In this document: positions 1-10,828 of the stretch, in pieces
Layout: every line of letters begins with the position of its first letter
How positions within the stretch are numbered: the first letter of the stretch is position 1
From: a virus
Reading direction: 5' to 3' (one strand)
UHGV virus genome: UHGV-0263856
Length of the DNA: 20,499 bases
Notes under the pieces: generated by a model
What the model saw: only the letters and a program-made list of their open reading frames with translations
Told to the model about the DNA's origin: nothing
Database searches by the model: none
Program-made: the position numbers and the translations under genes

Positions 1-209
1 AACCAGATCACCAGGACGACTACTTGCGCTGATTATCTGCTGCAGCATTTCTGCCGGTTTTTCGCACGGATGTTTCCCGGGATAGTACTGCACCGGTTTA
101 TGCAGTACTATCCCGGGAAACATCCGTGCGAAAAACCGGCAGAAATGCTGCAGCAGATAATCAGCGCAAGTAGTCGTCCTGGTGATCTGGTTGCGGATTT
201 TTTCATGGG
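1..209. repeat. Palindromic duplication of an internal 3'-region fragment of the methyltransferase gene
   Basis: 1-101 is identical to 809-909 (same orientation). 103-209 is the exact reverse complement of 792-898. Arms 1-90 and 103-192 form a perfect inverted repeat around a 12-nt centre (91-102). The left arm is cut by the window start. The + strand ORF 70-285 only re-reads the methyltransferase C-terminal residues and then diverges. Confidence 0.9.
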
Positions 210-337
210 ATCCGCGATTATCCCATATACCTACTCGCTGATTGCCCCTCCGCACAGGGGGATTCACCATGCCAGTTTCTTTTAACAAACTCCCCGCAAA
301 ACAGACAACTGTCAACCGTCTGAATTGTGAGACATTT

Positions 338-551: not shown

Positions 552-627
552 TGGTGGCCCTTGCTGGATTTGAACCAGCGACCTGGCGATTATGAGTCGC
601 TCGCTCTCACCACTGAGCTAAAGGGCC
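552..627 (-). tRNA. ileZ: tRNA-Ile2-like (anticodon CAU, lysidine type; Met not formally excluded)
   Basis: Reverse complement GGCCCTT-TA-GCTCAGTGGTGAGAGC-G-AGCGA-CTCATAA-TCGCC...GGTTCAAATCC...AAGGGCC-A-CCA. Near-identical in layout to E. coli tRNA-Ile2 (ileX) as recalled. Confidence 0.85.
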
Positions 628-676: not shown

Positions 677-1726
677 TCAAACGATTAAATCCTGAACTTC
701 CCTGACTGTCTGCTCAAAACGTCCGGTCTCCAGCTCAACACCAATCGCACGACGCCCCAGTGCCATCGCCGCTTTTACCGTTGAACCCGACCCCATGAAA
801 AAATCCGCAACCAGATCACCAGGACGACTACTTGCGCTGATTATCTGCTGCAGCATTTCTGCCGGTTTTTCGCACGGATGTTTCCCGGGATAGTACTGCA
901 CCGGTTTATACGTCCACACATCGGTGTACGGCACCTGCACCGTCACACCGAAATACCGCCGCAAATTTTTATATTCACTCAGCAGTTCCATATACTGCCG
1001 GTTCAGCTCACTGTATGTGCTGACCAGCTGGTGGTGTGGCTTTTCCAGTTCCCCGCGCTGATGTTTCTCTTCTGCCACCCGGGCAAACAGCGACTGTAAT
1101 TTCAGATAATCGCTTTCGTTCGGTAGCTGCCACTGACTGGCACTGAACCAGTGCGGCACCATGTTTTTCTTTCCTGTGGCATCTGCAATCTGTTTTGCCG
1201 TTATCCCCAGGGCAGCGCGCGCATCACGAAAGTAAGCAATCAGCGGGGCCATCACATGCTGTTTCAGTGCCCTGCCCTTCGCCTCATACCCGGCATCTTT
1301 CGGACGATACGGCCCCTGATAATGTTCCGCGAACAGAATGCGCTCTGTGGCGGGGAAATACGCCCGCAGGCTTTCCTTGTTGCATCCGTTCCAGCGTCCG
1401 GACGGCTTCGCCCAGATAATATGGTTCAGCACACTGAAGCGTTCACGCATCATGATTTCGATATCAGATGCCAGGCGATGACCACAGAACAGGTAAAGAC
1501 TTCCGGCAGGTTTCAGCACCCGCCAGAACTGCGCCAGACACTGGTCCAGCCACTTCAGGTAATCATCGTCGCCCTTCCACTGGTTATCCCAGCCCTCAGG
1601 CTTCACTTTAAAGTACGGCGGGTCCGTAACTATCAGGTCAACAGAATTTTCGGGTAACGACCGGATAAATTCCAGGCAGTCGGCGTTGATTAACTCACAA
1701 CTGGATATTTTTACAGTATTAAGCAT
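677..1726 (-). CDS. DNA N6-adenine methyltransferase (beta-class, DPPY motif IV before FxGxG motif I)
   Basis: 349-aa ORF. N-terminal DLIVTDPPYF (motif IV) and C-terminal DFFMGSGST (motif I), the order typical of PF01555-type N6A/N4C MTases. No adjacent restriction gene, so it looks like an orphan phage MTase. Confidence 0.85.
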   Translation of the reverse strand: MLNTVKISSCELINADCLEFIRSLPENSVDLIVTDPPYFKVKPEGWDNQWKGDDDYLKWLDQCLAQFWRVLKPAGSLYLFCGHRLASDIEIMMRERFSVLNHIIWAKPSGRWNGCNKESLRAYFPATERILFAEHYQGPYRPKDAGYEAKGRALKQHVMAPLIAYFRDARAALGITAKQIADATGKKNMVPHWFSASQWQLPNESDYLKLQSLFARVAEEKHQRGELEKPHHQLVSTYSELNRQYMELLSEYKNLRRYFGVTVQVPYTDVWTYKPVQYYPGKHPCEKPAEMLQQIISASSRPGDLVADFFMGSGSTVKAAMALGRRAIGVELETGRFEQTVREVQDLIV

Positions 1727-1860
1727 GGATCATTAAGCCTGTCTCTGATAGGCTCATTCTGCTTTTGCGCAAAGCAGTGGGCCTGAGGTTTGCTTGTGAA
1801 CCCAACGCATGAGCAGATGGCTGGCAGGTGCCGCTAACACCCACCAGCCGCCCATTACCA

Positions 1861-1889
1861 CAAATAAAAAAGCCTTCACTGAGGAAGGC
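1861..1889 (-). terminator. Intrinsic terminator at the end of the small winged-helix ORF
   Basis: - strand RNA: GCCUUC / loop CUCAGU / GAAGGC followed by UUUUUUAUUUG. The stem overlaps the last codons of ORF 1876-2073. Confidence 0.65.
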
Positions 1890-2073
1890 GTCTGTAACAA
1901 CCGAACTGATAATCTGCCAGACCCGCCATAACAAGCTGGGTCAGTATTAACTGGCAACGTTCGCGTGAAAGGTAAGTATTATGCGCAATTTCCCCGACGG
2001 TCGCCGGTTCGGTGACGCTTAATTCATTAAACACCACTCTGGCAGTTTCGGTCATATCCTGCTGTTTTAGCAT
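1876..2073 (-). CDS. Small winged-helix DNA-binding protein (PapI/FaeA-like fold suspected)
   Basis: 65 aa with a TVGEIAHNTYLSRERCQLILTQLVMAGL helix-turn-helix-like segment. Purine-rich stretch before the ATG; bracketed by terminators on both sides, so it is a stand-alone unit. Confidence 0.45.
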   Translation of the reverse strand: MLKQQDMTETARVVFNELSVTEPATVGEIAHNTYLSRERCQLILTQLVMAGLADYQFGCYRRLPQ

Positions 2074-2191
2074 GCCTTTTCCCTTTTCTGGTTAACGTGA
2101 CATACCAATAACTCTTGTCGAAAAAGCCAGCAAGCTGAAAGACCGATATTAATAACTACCAGCGCGTTTAATGTACCGCACTTCGGGCATC

Positions 2192-2216
2192 AAAAAACCC
2201 GCTCAATGGCGGGTTT
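2192..2216 (-). terminator. Intrinsic terminator after the membrane-protein cassette
   Basis: Stem CCCGC/GCGGG (extendable to 7 bp) with a 6-nt loop, A6 on one side and T3 on the other; on the - strand RNA the hairpin is followed by UUUUUU. Sits 20 nt after the stop of 2236-3033. Confidence 0.7.
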
Positions 2217-2235
2217 AATTAATGAGGTAACAACC

Positions 2236-3033
2236 TTAACTTGTTTGATTCTGTACTTCAGTGGCCTTCTTCCCTTCAATACCTGCCTTGAAAGTCTCGA
2301 ATGTTTCAACATTAAACAGCGAAAAAGATTCGATCTGATCGAAGGGCAACACATGCCTAAACTGATAAACTGACAATGGCTCAGAAGTTAATGTGATACC
2401 CTGACTAAGGTAGTAGTCCACATAATTATGCTCAACACAAAAAGTCAGAGTATCTTTATCTCTGTACCCGGACATAAAAGGGATTAGCACCAATGTGTTA
2501 GTATCTAACTGATTGAAACGTGCCTCATCAATCATCCCCACATAGACCTTGCGAGACTTCAGTGTAACCAACAATAACAATCCACGCTCAACTGATTCAA
2601 GAAGGATATTTTCCACGGCACTATGAGCCGCAATTTCTTCAAAAATAGCCTTGCGCTTTTGTGGGTCTTTATGGTTTTTGGTTGCCTCTGATGCCTTCCC
2701 GATACTTACAATAATAGTGAAAGCTATCGACATAGCAGGGAACATGCTCAACCCAAACACTTGCATTTTGAGAAAGTCATGGGCGAAAGTAAAGGGAGCG
2801 TACCAACCAAACAAGTACGCTGGAATGTTCCAAAGTGACATTCCAGCGTACAGAACAACAACCAATAAGGCAGCGATAAGAATACCACTTATGAGAAACT
2901 CACCACCTTTCAGTGCAACATCAAAGTATGCATTCCAACCGATCGCTTTGCTTTGACGGTATCGTGACGGCAAATGGCAGTTGGTATAGTGATAACCACA
3001 AACTAAAACAATAACAATCAGCGCAGCCCACAT
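2236..3033 (-). CDS. Uncharacterised membrane protein (3 predicted N-terminal TM helices plus ~150-aa soluble C-terminal domain)
   Basis: 265-aa ORF. Hydrophobic segments WAALIVIVLVCGY, FLISGILIAALLVVVLYAGM, VFGLSMFPAMSIAFTIIVSIG. AT-rich by eye relative to the replication genes. No motif I recognise. Confidence 0.7.
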   Translation of the reverse strand: MWAALIVIVLVCGYHYTNCHLPSRYRQSKAIGWNAYFDVALKGGEFLISGILIAALLVVVLYAGMSLWNIPAYLFGWYAPFTFAHDFLKMQVFGLSMFPAMSIAFTIIVSIGKASEATKNHKDPQKRKAIFEEIAAHSAVENILLESVERGLLLLVTLKSRKVYVGMIDEARFNQLDTNTLVLIPFMSGYRDKDTLTFCVEHNYVDYYLSQGITLTSEPLSVYQFRHVLPFDQIESFSLFNVETFETFKAGIEGKKATEVQNQTS

Positions 3034-3039
3034 AGAAGA

Positions 3040-3267
3040 CTAACCCTTCTTCTTAGTACTCAATCCCTTAATATTGGCTGCGAAAGCCTTTTGCACATCA
3101 GCGTTGTTGCGATTCAAAACCATCGAACCATTACTATCAATGAAAAACTTGTCACTTTCATGCTTAGCTTCTTTTCCATCACACATGGAAGCTATATCTG
3201 CAATTTTTTTGATGATCTTCTCAGGTGAGAGGATCGCGCGAGCGGCAAGTGTTAGATATTTCGGCAT
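3040..3267 (-). CDS. Small hypothetical protein, first gene of the Q-proximal cassette
   Basis: GGAGG 6-7 nt upstream of the ATG at 3267 (MPKYLTLAARAIL...). The ORF track extends it to 3324 but that start lacks an SD. Stop is 7 nt before the start of 2236-3033. Confidence 0.55.
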   Translation of the reverse strand: MPKYLTLAARAILSPEKIIKKIADIASMCDGKEAKHESDKFFIDSNGSMVLNRNNADVQKAFAANIKGLSTKKKG

Positions 3268-3446
3268 GCTCCCCTCCGTTAACAGATAAAACACAAAAAG
3301 CACACAAACAAAGTATGCGCACATCCTAACCTATGTGGCTAACAACCACTTTCTTTTATAAGATGAGTGTATTACCTAAAGGGTAACTCGGCAATAGCAG
3401 AATAGTTTTAGCAAGGTAAAATCGATGGTCTTTCGCTCAACTTACG

Positions 3447-3475
3447 ACAAAAGATAGCCCGCTCAGCAGCAGGCT
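3447..3475 (-). terminator. Candidate tR'-like intrinsic terminator downstream of Q
   Basis: - strand RNA: AGCCUGC / UGCUGA / GCGGGCU (one G-U) followed by AUCUUUUG, about 65 nt after the Q stop. The PR' promoter itself could not be pinned down. Confidence 0.35.
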
Positions 3476-3539
3476 TTGTTTAGTTTGCCATCGTGTACAA
3501 AATCAGCAAAATATCAGATTTACACGAAATGTACGCGAT

Positions 3540-4235
3540 TTAATTGACTTTTGCAATAACCCGCCGCGAAAAGGTCGCTTTTTGTTGCGATCTTGTTTTC
3601 ATGGTATAAATCAAAGATTCGTTGTCGAGGTTCTTAAAAATGTCGCACATATCACGCCAGTAGTGCGCATAATTGTGGCTCCAGTTGTCTGACTTAACTC
3701 CACACAGTCTGGCAAGTTCCTGTCGCTGGTAGACGTCACACCCAGTAATCCTCCCCCTGACATCCTGCGCCGCCAGCCAGATTAATTTCTTCAGACGCTC
3801 AAGCGTTTTCCCTGTAATTTTTCTGGTGCCAAAATGCACCTGAAACTTATCCCACGCCCATTTCGCAATGACCACCTGATAATCCCAACTCGGATTTTCA
3901 CTGTATACCCACAGTACCCACGCCTTCTGATGCTCTTCAAGAGACAGAACGGCGCGTCGCCATGATGATGTCGAAAACTCAACCGGACTGACTAGGGCAA
4001 TTGATGAACCTTTCGCCAGCGATTGCTTTCCCGGGATCGGTGGATTATCCAGCGTTACCATTTTTCCAGTGACCTTATCGCGGTACCGGATTTTTTTACG
4101 TCTGTAACGCCCTGTATCAAACATGGCATTCTCCTGCCAGGCTTCAAGCTGACCTTTTGTTGCCCCACTCAAATCGGCGGTGGCGATAATGAGTTGCTCA
4201 CGAACAAACTGTAAATACTGGTTATTCATGCGCAC
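3540..4235 (-). CDS. Late-gene antiterminator Q-like protein
   Basis: 231 aa. Last gene of the early-right operon, immediately after rusA and before the terminator-rich late-region entry, as in lambdoid phages. Assignment rests mainly on position and size. Confidence 0.55.
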   Translation of the reverse strand: MRMNNQYLQFVREQLIIATADLSGATKGQLEAWQENAMFDTGRYRRKKIRYRDKVTGKMVTLDNPPIPGKQSLAKGSSIALVSPVEFSTSSWRRAVLSLEEHQKAWVLWVYSENPSWDYQVVIAKWAWDKFQVHFGTRKITGKTLERLKKLIWLAAQDVRGRITGCDVYQRQELARLCGVKSDNWSHNYAHYWRDMCDIFKNLDNESLIYTMKTRSQQKATFSRRVIAKVN

Positions 4236-10443: not shown

Positions 10444-10828
10444 GATGGCAGCCTCCGTTGACTGTGGAAAACTTCCACCACCGGAGCTGCGAAACTCACT
10501 GGTGGCAGACTGAACAGGGTTCGCAGTACCGGCGTCAACGGAAACCGGCGAGCCTTTCGGCTCCCCTGCCCAGCCCACCATAATTCTGGCGTGCGTGAGC
10601 GCGGACGATAAAAAAGACGCTGGCGCGTCATATATCGCCGTTGACAATTCCGGGCTGCGACCCCCGGCACCCGCTTTATAAGGTGCAGAGACAGTGTAAC
10701 GTCCCGAAATTGCAGAATCAATATTTGGTCTTGAAATGATCATATAGCTGCTGATATCTTTAGAACTGTTCTTGGATGTTTCGGAGCCGTTTTATGCGAA
10801 ACAGCTCCCCGTTATTGATGTTGAGTGA

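What the first reader, a model, noticed from the sequence alone, without database searches (positions are those of the whole stretch)
2192..3324. AT-rich two-gene moron cassette immediately downstream of Q: small soluble protein plus 3-TM membrane protein with its own terminator
3040-3267 (75 aa, strong GGAGG) and 2236-3033 (265 aa) sit between Q and the methyltransferase, are AT-rich by eye, and end in a strong intrinsic terminator (2192-2216). This is the Q/PR'-proximal moron site where lambdoid phages carry stx, bor-like and exclusion genes. I recognise no motif in either protein. The membrane anchor plus cytoplasmic domain is reminiscent of superinfection-exclusion or abortive-infection effectors, so this is the best candidate here for an undescribed phage-defence or host-interaction module.
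Basis: partly seen in the sequence, partly recalled or inferred. Interest (0 to 1): 0.75.

Follow-up and report, generated by a model that had tools for sequence, protein, structure and literature searches.

The report
Mobile prophage cassette: membrane-tethered Sm-like protein pair
A rare 1.3-kb insert just after the phage late-gene switch (Q) carries two always-paired genes of unknown function, a small soluble protein and an inner-membrane protein with an Hfq/Sm-like barrel on its cytoplasmic side; the pair hops between phage cargo sites that often hold anti-phage genes, which makes it an untested candidate for a new phage-exclusion module.

Summary
ORFs 3040-3267 (75 aa, GGAGG) and 2236-3033 (265 aa) lie on the minus strand downstream of Q, are AT-rich (41.3% vs 48.8% GC) and end at a real hairpin terminator (2192-2216). 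Comparison with an empty-site relative defines a 1,266-bp insert (about 2200-3465) whose two junctions fall inside terminator hairpins. Other prophages carry other cargo in the same slot, including a MazF toxin. The cassette occurs in only 14 of 5,426 complete E. coli genomes.

The pair turns up at different phage sites. Of 80 viral loci, 32 lie in the P2 gpA-portal defence hotspot, once beside bSEFIR; 15 follow Q; 13 lie in tail modules.

The moron status is firm. A defence or exclusion role is plausible (about 0.4) but untested. Some members sit in stable chromosomal positions, and neighbours show no strong defence-island signal.

The parts
2200..3465 (-). Whole inserted cassette (moron) relative to an empty-site prophage
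   Evidence: blastn against L095 (E. coli O145 RM11626). Window 1700-2199 aligns with L095 301-808, and window 3466-4235 with L095 814-1584, so 1,266 bp are replaced by about 5 nt (alignments). GC is 0.413 vs 0.488.
3456..3475 (-). Q-proximal terminator hairpin (tR'-like) at the upstream junction, with an interrupted U-tract (GGGCU-AUCUUUUGU)
   Evidence: Terminator scan. Fold -14.2 kcal/mol, z = -3.3. Its 5' half aligns with the single terminator of the empty site.
3366..3394 (-). Putative sigma-70 promoter of the cassette: TTGCCG (3394-3389), 17-nt spacer, TACACT (3371-3366). Predicted only.
   Evidence: Read from the sequence. It scores 8 of 12, below the scanner's threshold. The element TAATACACTC, with a TTGnnn hexamer 17 nt upstream, recurs at about -100 in the otherwise unrelated upstream regions of the Pantoea (L017) and Serratia (L018) cassettes.
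3273..3277 (-). Shine-Dalgarno GGAGG of the small gene
   Evidence: Sequence. GGAGG is conserved before the small gene in other loci.
3040..3267 (-). Small partner gene, 75 aa, soluble and basic (14 K+R, 8 D+E). The conserved core is a beta-hairpin plus helix (residues about 41-70).
   Evidence: ORF. Homologues (207 clusters). Alignments A2, A8 and A9. AF2 gives pLDDT 64 overall and about 78 for the core.
2236..3033 (-). Large gene, 265 aa: three N-terminal TM helices, two linker helices, then a cytoplasmic Sm/Hfq-like beta-barrel (153-240) and a C-terminal helix
2192..2216 (-). Distal intrinsic terminator. Its 3' half and T-tract are homologous to the backbone tR'.
   Evidence: Fold -17.9 kcal/mol, z = -4.5. 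Alignment with the empty site and with other cargo variants.

Best explanation
Shown: this is a self-contained, horizontally mobile two-gene accessory operon (a moron), recombined into the tR' terminator just downstream of Q in a lambdoid E. coli prophage. It encodes (i) a 75-aa cytoplasmic protein whose conserved core is a beta-hairpin plus helix, and (ii) a 265-aa inner-membrane protein with three TM helices (N-terminus out) and a cytoplasmic Sm/Hfq-like beta-barrel. The two genes form an obligate pair across a large, uncharacterised family.

Inferred, as the most likely function: a prophage-borne phage-exclusion module of the abortive-infection or toxin-antitoxin-like type.
- The Sm-like domains assemble, as Sm barrels usually do, into a ring under the membrane.
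- Through the invariant basic loops (KSRK, SGYRDKD) the ring binds a nucleic acid or nucleotide signal that appears during infection.
- The TM helices then perturb the membrane, by a leak or a block of DNA entry.
- The small partner holds the membrane protein inactive or acts as its adaptor.

Expression in the lysogen would come from the cassette's own weak promoter and/or from read-through of the weakened Q-proximal terminator. During lytic growth the cassette is part of the Q-antiterminated late transcript.

The moron status and the architecture are shown. Ring formation, ligand binding, membrane action and anti-phage activity are all inference.
For: Moron status:
- The insert is absent from an otherwise collinear prophage, and other cargo (PemK/MazF toxin, a 237-aa hypothetical, DUF3927) occupies the same slot.
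- GC is low and the insert is bracketed by terminators.
- It is rare: 14 of 5,426 E. coli genomes.

Architecture:
- AF2 model with pLDDT 89.

Obligate pairing:
- The small ORF abuts the large gene in 80 of 80 IMG/VR loci.
- HMMs not built from the loci themselves detect it in 56 of 80 genome loci; a broader HMM detects it in 74 of 80.
- Pairing persists at about 25% identity of the large protein and in Acidobacteria and Balneolaceae.

Mobility and company:
- The same pair lies in E217-like myovirus and siphovirus tail modules, in primase-bearing elements next to an Imm_superinfect gene, and after a different antiterminator family in Citrobacter.
- It also lies in the gpA-portal slot of P2-like phages. 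That slot accounts for 32 of 80 viral loci.
- The gpA-gpQ slot is an experimentally validated hotspot of anti-phage systems (Rousset et al. 2022, PMC9122126). Their Table S5A lists the E. coli P2-type pair there as 'hypothetical + hypothetical'.
- In Klebsiella phage ST15-OXA48phi14.1 and in E. coli GDSC2239PM the pair sits next to bSEFIR, a known defence gene.

Cost signal: 7 of 80 genomic loci have a split large gene beside an intact small gene. This fits a costly gene, but draft-assembly errors are not excluded.
Against: - There is no experimental test.
- Neither protein matches any of 5,027 PADLOC models.
- Among 107 genes flanking chromosomal copies, only sporadic defence hits appear (PD-Lambda-2_A, PDC-S42/S59, methylases).
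- Several clades carry the pair in conserved, non-mobile positions among metabolic or envelope genes: Pantoea/Erwinia between transporters and oxidoreductases, and Bryobacterales next to GT2, KsgA-like and ECF-sigma genes. That is unusual for defence genes.
- The Sm-like assignment is at fold level only. Profile comparison with Hfq gives 1% probability, and no Pfam or PDB sequence matches. Small beta-barrels can converge.
- The promoter is only a weak consensus match.
- The small protein's model has low confidence, so no binding mode can be proposed.
Confidence: 0.4

Rival explanations
1. Classical superinfection exclusion at the injection step. The inner-membrane protein blocks DNA entry of incoming phages, for example by engaging the tape-measure or ejection proteins or their membrane receptor. 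The cell is not killed, and the small protein acts as an assembly or targeting factor.
For: The protein is an inner-membrane protein expressed from a prophage moron. 13 of 80 viral loci place the pair inside tail modules next to tape-measure, chaperone or baseplate genes. From my own knowledge, this is where HK97 gp15-type exclusion morons sit. The pair is adjacent to an Imm_superinfect (PF14373) gene in L105 and L106.
Against: There is no similarity to SieA/B, Imm, Sp, Cor or gp15 families. Known injection blockers are single genes, and a strictly conserved cytoplasmic partner is not expected for them. The most conserved residues lie in the cytoplasmic barrel, not in the periplasmic loop. Members in syntenic chromosomal positions of non-lysogenic context fit poorly.
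Confidence: 0.15
2. An addiction or stabilisation toxin-antitoxin pair with no anti-phage role. The membrane protein is the toxin, the upstream small protein is the antitoxin, and the module merely favours retention of the DNA that carries it.
For: The gene order is small upstream then larger downstream, with a gap of -16 to +35 nt. The pairing is strict. A MazF toxin is alternative cargo at the same site. 7 of 80 loci have a broken large gene beside an intact small gene. The pair occurs as an isolated two-gene islet between unrelated genes.
Against: No antitoxin-type DNA-binding fold or known toxin fold was detected. No conserved operator lies upstream. Phage moron sites already ensure inheritance with the prophage. 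Many TA modules turn out to be defence systems anyway, so this rival overlaps the main explanation.
Confidence: 0.12
3. A non-defence membrane function. This would be a membrane-tethered Sm-like RNA or nucleotide-binding regulator, or an envelope or ion-homeostasis factor, ancestral in bacterial chromosomes and occasionally picked up by phages as a lysogenic-conversion or fitness gene.
For: The family is broad and old: 776 clusters at 50% identity across Proteobacteria, Acidobacteria and Balneolaceae. Stable syntenic positions occur in Pantoea/Erwinia and Bryobacterales. Defence-neighbour signal is weak. Sm/Hfq folds are typically RNA-handling.
Against: No neighbourhood is functionally coherent. 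There is heavy over-representation in phage accessory slots: 237 IMG/VR contigs against 103 loci in 185,579 species genomes, although the two collections are not directly comparable. The distribution within E. coli is patchy, at 14 + 52 of 5,426 genomes.
Confidence: 0.2
4. A lysis-timing device (holin, antiholin or related) belonging to the late operon.
For: It lies in the Q-dependent late transcript upstream of the lysis genes and encodes a multi-TM protein.
Against: At 265 aa with a large cytoplasmic domain it is unlike holins. The prophage already has a class II holin, a lysozyme and a spanin. In other phages the pair sits far from lysis genes, in the P2 hotspot or in tail modules. Collinear prophages that lack it show it is dispensable.
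Confidence: 0.03

Closest known systems
Sm / LSm / Hfq small beta-barrel proteins
   Different: There is no sequence-level signal: Pfam gives nothing at E <= 1, hhalign against Hfq gives 1% probability, and a PDB HMM search finds nothing. A 25-residue insertion precedes the last strands. The domain is tethered to three TM helices and comes with an obligate small partner. Ring formation and RNA binding are untested.
MscS-type mechanosensitive channels (from my own knowledge: N-out, three TM helices, then an Sm-like beta domain forming a heptameric ring)
   Same: The order of parts and the predicted topology are the same: N-terminus out, three TM helices, and a cytoplasmic Sm-like barrel shortly after TM3.
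WYL-domain ligand sensors of defence regulators (DriD, CapW, BrxR)
   Different: WYL proteins are soluble transcription factors with HTH domains. No WYL Pfam match was found here.
Prophage membrane exclusion morons and Abi membrane effectors (HK97 gp15, T4 Imm, P22 SieA/B, lambda RexB, lactococcal AbiP; from my own knowledge)
   Same: They are accessory, promoter-to-terminator cassettes in prophages that encode inner-membrane proteins. AbiP is described as membrane-anchored and nucleic-acid-binding. An Imm-family gene is a neighbour in L105 and L106.
   Different: No homology to any of them was found. Here the unit is a strictly conserved two-gene pair, and it has a different fold.
PHROG 3630 / PHROG 23864, and faintly Pfam DUF6338
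   Same: The large protein matches PHROG 3630 over its full length (E = 1.6e-59), and its C-terminal domain matches PHROG 23864. Five of 115 diverse family members give sub-threshold DUF6338 hits in the TM region.
   Different: All of these are families of unknown function. The window protein itself does not match DUF6338. No paper describes them.
Cargo of the P2 gpA-gpQ defence hotspot (Rousset et al. 2022)
   Same: Distant members of this pair (about 30% identity) occupy that hotspot in Salmonella, Klebsiella, E. coli, Edwardsiella, Photorhabdus and other P2-like prophages. They are listed in the paper's Table S5A.
   Different: In the supplementary text held here, the pair appears only as 'hypothetical + hypothetical'. 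It was not found among the tested systems. The validated AC1 system '2TM + 1TM + TIR' has a protein 1 whose domain-search matches all lie within about residue 120, so it appears to be a different, shorter protein.

Membership tests
Moron (autonomous accessory cassette in a phage genome, sensu Hendrix; definition from my own knowledge) | Present between two backbone genes that are adjacent in related phages | tested here: met
   The empty-site relative L095 has about 5 nt in place of window 2200-3465.
Moron (autonomous accessory cassette in a phage genome, sensu Hendrix; definition from my own knowledge) | Base composition differs from the surrounding genome | tested here: met
   GC is 0.413 vs 0.488, in the lowest 2.6% of same-sized windows.
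Moron (autonomous accessory cassette in a phage genome, sensu Hendrix; definition from my own knowledge) | Own terminator | tested here: met
   The hairpin at 2192-2216 has z = -4.5. It is chimeric with the backbone tR'.
Moron (autonomous accessory cassette in a phage genome, sensu Hendrix; definition from my own knowledge) | Own promoter active in the lysogen | tested here: inconclusive
   Only a weak TTGCCG-17-TACACT match, below the scanner threshold. The -10-like element is shared with two other cassettes. No expression data are available.
Sm/LSm/Hfq superfamily | Sm fold (helix plus five bent strands forming a small barrel) | tested here: met
Sm/LSm/Hfq superfamily | Sequence-profile match to the LSM or Hfq families (Sm1/Sm2 motifs) | tested here: not met
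   No Pfam hit at E <= 1. hhalign against Hfq gives 1.1% probability. The PDB HMM search is empty.
Sm/LSm/Hfq superfamily | Hexameric or heptameric ring and RNA binding | not testable with these tools
   No multimer prediction or biochemistry is available.
MscS-like channels | Profile or structural match to MscS TM3 plus beta domain plus alpha/beta domain | tested here: not met
Known anti-phage defence systems (PADLOC-DB v2) | HMM match of either protein to a defence-system component | tested here: not met
   No families at E <= 1 for either protein.
Anti-phage defence systems in general | Enrichment next to known defence genes or in validated defence hotspots | tested here: inconclusive
   For: 32 of 80 viral loci lie in the P2 gpA-portal hotspot, and the pair sits next to bSEFIR. 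Against: hits among 107 chromosomal neighbours are sparse. No genome-wide enrichment score was computed.
Anti-phage defence systems in general | Protection against phage when expressed | not testable with these tools
   This needs an experiment.
Type II toxin-antitoxin modules | Small upstream gene tightly coupled to a larger downstream gene | tested here: met
   The gap is 6 nt here and -16 to +35 nt across the family.
Type II toxin-antitoxin modules | Recognisable antitoxin DNA-binding fold or toxin fold | tested here: not met
   No Pfam, NCBIfam or PADLOC hits. The small protein's model shows a hairpin plus helix only.
PHROG 3630 | Full-length HMM match | tested here: met
   E = 1.6e-59, covering residues 1-257 of the protein against positions 1-257 of the 274-position profile. 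The family has no known function.
Pfam DUF6338 | Score above the gathering threshold | tested here: not met
   The window protein has no hit. Five of 115 relatives give sub-threshold hits, e.g. P0219 at 23.1 bits against a cutoff of 26.5.

The most novel reading that the evidence does not exclude
The pair defines a previously unrecognised, phylum-spanning class of two-component membrane systems. A ring of membrane-tethered Sm-like barrels would act as a cytoplasmic nucleic-acid or nucleotide sensor directly coupled to a membrane effector, kept in check by a small hairpin-helix partner. Temperate phages would trade it between their cargo hotspots as an anti-phage weapon. That would make it the first defence system built on an Sm/Hfq fold.
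Probability: 0.25. Interest if true: 0.8.

Novelty: new variant of a known kind. Interest (0 to 1): 0.6.

Why it matters
If the pair protects against phages, it would add a compact (about 1 kb) system with a new sensor-effector design, an Sm-like barrel on a membrane anchor. It is present in well over a thousand sequenced phages and bacteria, including Salmonella, Klebsiella, Yersinia, Serratia and E. coli prophages.

It would also assign a function to unexplained cargo at the P2 gpA-gpQ hotspot and at the Q-proximal slot of Stx-type lambdoid phages.

If it is not defensive, it is still a sizeable conserved protein pair without any Pfam family, with a confidently predicted and unusual architecture. 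The terminator-to-terminator cargo exchange seen here shows concretely how morons swap at the Q/tR' site.

Tried and rejected
- **Family libraries.** Pfam, NCBIfam and PADLOC scans of both proteins gave nothing.
- **PDB sequence search.** A profile search of PDB sequences gave nothing.
- **Phage DNA search.** Megablast against 50,697 phage records found no match. tblastn found only 30%-identity relatives in P2-like phages.
- **afdb50 fold library.** It was unavailable.
- **BFVD fold search.** It returned only weak Sm-like hits with no full-length analogue.
- **MscS and Hfq homology.** Tested by hhalign and rejected at sequence level.
- **Tai tail-assembly-interference systems (PMC11364771).** Considered because they are lambdoid morons with a partner immunity gene. 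Rejected because they have no TM protein and no similarity.
- **Rousset's validated AC1 'TIR + TM proteins' system.** Suspected to be this pair because the pair neighbours a SEFIR/TIR gene in Klebsiella and in one E. coli strain. Rejected because AC1 is '2TM + 1TM + TIR' and the matches of its protein 1 all lie within about residue 120. The TIR gene also occurs without the pair.
- **A count that was wrong.** A first distant-mode search suggested the P2-type pair was in 1,313 E. coli genomes. That came from other parts of the query. The pair alone is in 52 genomes.
- **A TTACC/GGTAA operator upstream of the small gene.** Not general.
- **A lipoprotein signal in TM1.** Rejected because there is no lipobox and the Cys is not conserved.
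- **The leader hairpin at 3300-3320.** No more stable than shuffled sequence (z = -0.65 for the whole leader).
- **Structure of the small protein.** Confidence was too low (pLDDT 64) for a meaningful fold search.
- **Literature searches.** Searches for Sm-like or Hfq-like membrane defence proteins, for DUF6338 and for the protein accessions found nothing relevant.
Full report
**1. The observation**

On the minus strand the window reads as follows:
- Q (3540-4235, Pfam Phage_antiter_Q, E = 1.5e-83)
- a non-coding stretch with a terminator-like hairpin at 3456-3475
- a 75-aa ORF (3040-3267, GGAGG at 3277-3273)
- after 6 nt, a 265-aa ORF (2236-3033)
- a hairpin terminator (2192-2216)
- a 65-aa winged-helix gene (1876-2073)
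- an N6/N4 DNA methyltransferase (677-1726)
- three tRNAs (378-627)

RefSeq annotates the same two genes as hypothetical proteins. The region is AT-rich: 0.413 GC against 0.488 for the rest of the window, in the lowest 2.6% of equal-sized windows. The distal terminator folds at -17.9 kcal/mol with z = -4.5. The 65-aa backbone gene also lies before the methylase. The mechanical 94-aa extension of the small ORF (to 3324) is not supported by homologues.

**2. Boundaries and the nature of the site**

The 1.39-kb stretch occurs in only 14 of 5,426 complete E. coli genomes, always after Q. Its flanks occur in about 2,400 genomes.

In E. coli O145 RM11626 the flanks are contiguous. Window 1700-2199 and 3466-4235 align on either side of about 5 nt, so the insert is about 2200-3465, or 1,266 bp.

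Both junctions fall inside terminator hairpins. The empty site has one terminator after PR'. The window has a Q-proximal hairpin whose 5' half matches the backbone, and a distal hairpin whose 3' half and T-tract match the backbone.

Other relatives carry different cargo between the same two hairpins: a PemK/MazF toxin with small ORFs, a 237-aa hypothetical, or a DUF3927 protein. This is a cargo-exchange slot, and the cassette is a moron in the strict sense.

The Q-proximal hairpin has an interrupted U-tract. A weak promoter-like element, TTGCCG-17-TACACT (3394-3366), lies about 100 nt before the start codon. The TAATACACTC element with a TTGnnn hexamer 17 nt upstream recurs in the otherwise unrelated upstream regions of the Pantoea and Serratia cassettes. 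Expression in the lysogen is therefore plausible but not shown.

**3. The proteins**

Neither protein matches Pfam, NCBIfam or PADLOC, nor any PDB sequence by profile search. The large protein is PHROG 3630 (function unknown, E = 1.6e-59), and its C-terminal half is PHROG 23864.

Homologues are numerous:
- 82 clusters at 90% identity in the word-indexed search, all named hypothetical
- 776 representatives at 50% identity in the exhaustive search
- 103 loci among species-representative genomes, spanning Enterobacterales, Vibrio, Shewanella, Pseudomonas, Psychrobacter, Neisseriales, Legionella, alpha-proteobacteria, Acidobacteria (Bryobacterales) and Balneolaceae

Invariant residues cluster in two places: GW..Y in the first cytoplasmic loop, and two loops of the C-terminal domain, LKSRKVYVG and P..SGYRDKD.

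An AlphaFold2 model built on 37 sequences has mean pLDDT 89. It shows helices at 2-19, 33-75 and 97-122, two linker helices, a five-to-six-stranded barrel (153-240) and a terminal helix. Hydropathy and the K/R distribution indicate N-out, three TM segments and a cytoplasmic C-terminal domain.

The small protein has 207 clusters of relatives, all hypothetical and 60-80 aa long. They share a core of beta-hairpin, an almost invariant Gly, and a helix. Examples are KFFIDSNGSMVLNRNNADVQKAF in the window protein and SVRVVGRGTVKIDPEEV in other proteobacterial and metagenomic relatives. Its model is of modest quality: pLDDT 64 overall and about 78 in the core.

**4. The two genes are an obligate pair**

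- A same-strand small ORF ends within a few nucleotides of the large gene's start in all loci of close relatives.
- It is present in 80 of 80 of the best IMG/VR loci.
- HMMs not built from the loci themselves detect it in 56 of 80 genome loci. A wider HMM that includes some of those sequences detects it in 74 of 80.
- Visual inspection shows the hairpin-helix ORF even next to the most distant Acidobacterial and Balneolaceae members.
- Seven of 80 genomic loci have a split large gene beside an intact small gene.

**5. Where the pair lives**

It is strongly phage-associated: 237 IMG/VR contigs encode a relative. The best 80 divide as follows:

| Site | Loci |
|---|---|
| P2-like gpA-portal interval | 32 |
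| After a Q antiterminator | 15 |
| Tail modules | 13 |
| Primase/SLT elements | 2 |
| Unclassified | 18 |

Individual examples:
- Yersinia E217-like myovirus tail genes
- a Proteus siphovirus, between the tail chaperones and the tape-measure gene
- between baseplate and tail-fibre genes
- Pectobacterium and Klebsiella primase-bearing elements, the latter followed by an Imm_superinfect gene
- Citrobacter lambdoid prophages, after a different antiterminator family (PF03589)
- P2-like phages of Salmonella (SEN4/5 and L102), Klebsiella, E. coli, Edwardsiella, Photorhabdus, Erwinia and others

The gpA-gpQ interval of P2-like phages is an experimentally validated hotspot of anti-phage systems (Rousset et al. 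2022, PMC9122126). Their Table S5A lists the E. coli P2-type pair (WP_000094764 + WP_000212611) as 'hypothetical + hypothetical' among hotspot arrangements. I did not find it among their tested constructs in the text held.

In Klebsiella phage ST15-OXA48phi14.1 and in E. coli GDSC2239PM the pair lies beside bSEFIR (PADLOC E = 6.9e-103), a known defence gene. That gene also occurs alone. The P2-type pair is present in 52 of 5,426 E. coli genomes.

The evidence on the other side is also real:
- Chromosomal copies in Pantoea/Erwinia and in Bryobacterales sit in conserved positions among transport, sugar-metabolism or envelope genes.
- A PADLOC scan of 107 flanking genes gave only scattered hits.

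**6. Most likely mechanism**

Shown: a mobile, autonomous two-gene unit, and a membrane protein with a cytoplasmic Sm-like barrel whose most conserved residues are basic loops on that barrel.

Inferred: Sm-type barrels generally work as rings that bind nucleic acids or, in WYL domains, small ligands or ssDNA. A ring of six or seven subunits would gather 18-21 TM helices beneath it. That layout recalls, by analogy only, MscS, where an Sm-like beta domain follows three TM helices.

I therefore favour a sensor-effector model. The barrel ring detects an infection-specific nucleic acid or nucleotide, the TM bundle compromises the membrane or blocks DNA entry, and the small partner restrains or adapts it. 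I put about 0.4 on an Abi/TA-like exclusion module of this kind and 0.15 on a pure injection-block exclusion. That gives roughly 0.55 for an anti-phage role of some kind. The remaining rivals are:
- a non-defence membrane function (0.2)
- a purely addictive toxin-antitoxin pair (0.12)
- a lysis role (0.03)

**7. Comparison with known families**

The cassette meets the structural definition of a moron, with the promoter still unproven. It is a member of PHROG 3630.

It fails sequence-based membership tests for LSm/Hfq, MscS, all PADLOC systems and known toxin-antitoxin families. It has only a faint, sub-threshold link to Pfam DUF6338 in a few relatives.

The Tai systems and the AC1 TIR system, two validated prophage-encoded defence systems (a lambdoid moron and P2-hotspot cargo), are different entities.

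**8. Verdict**

The finding is real and well delimited. What is new is the fold assignment, the obligate pairing, the breadth of the family and its habit of occupying phage cargo hotspots. What is missing is any functional test.

I rate it as a new variant of a known kind: a prophage accessory cassette with a membrane effector, but with an unreported Sm-on-a-membrane architecture. Interest is 0.6.

Noticed in passing
window 10498-10585 (-) and 10610-10686 (-): Rfam matches to C4 antisense RNA (81 bits) and isrK Hfq-binding sRNA (59 bits) lie side by side in the early region of this lambdoid prophage. This suggests a P1/P7-type antisense immunity or anti-repressor control element.
   Followed up: no
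window 70-285 (+) versus 677-1726 (-): An inverted partial copy of the methyltransferase C-terminus (QYYPGKHPCEKPAEMLQQIISASSRPGDLVADFFMGS) lies on the other side of the tRNA cluster. It looks like a remnant of a rearrangement or of module exchange around the tRNAs. RefSeq marks a partial pseudogene there.
   Followed up: no
window 552-627 (-): ARAGORN calls the first tRNA Met (anticodon CAT), while RefSeq annotates it as tRNA-Ile. It is presumably the lysidine-modified ileX/ileZ type common in Stx-like phages. It is followed by two tRNA-Arg genes, anticodons TCG and TCT.
   Followed up: no
window 3456-3475 (-): The Q-proximal terminator has an interrupted U-tract (GGGCUAUCUUUUGU), unlike the clean T-run of the empty-site tR'. 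This might let constitutive PR' transcripts leak into the cassette in lysogens.
   Followed up: partly
L096 (E. coli 2015C-3121) 695-1362; L097 (E. coli WY517-2) 849-1562; H24 and H25: The same terminator-to-terminator slot after Q carries a solitary PemK/MazF-family toxin with two small ORFs, a 237-aa protein with no Pfam or PADLOC match, or a DUF3927 protein. The slot is a general cargo hotspot and would merit a survey.
   Followed up: partly
L002 (E. coli strain 41, raw beef) flanks: The 96.8%-identical copy of the cassette sits in a degraded prophage region. That region also holds an enterotoxin A family gene, duplicated holin and tRNA blocks, a phospholipase D family protein and a retron-type HNH endonuclease.
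   Followed up: no
L020, L036, L048, L051, L052, L058, L062: In 7 of 80 species-representative loci the large gene is split into two or more ORFs while the small gene is intact. This could be pseudogenisation of a costly gene or draft-assembly errors.
   Followed up: no
L013 6853-7062 and L111 6068-6247: A 69-aa ORF lies between the pair and bSEFIR in the Klebsiella phage. Its E. coli counterpart carries an internal stop. It is unclear whether it belongs to the pair, to bSEFIR or to neither.
   Followed up: no
window 1876-2073 (-): The conserved 65-aa backbone gene between the cargo slot and the methylase is a winged-helix protein, TrmB-like (PHROG 331; Pfam TrmB at E = 0.002, below threshold). 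It is always retained next to the methyltransferase and could regulate it.
   Followed up: no
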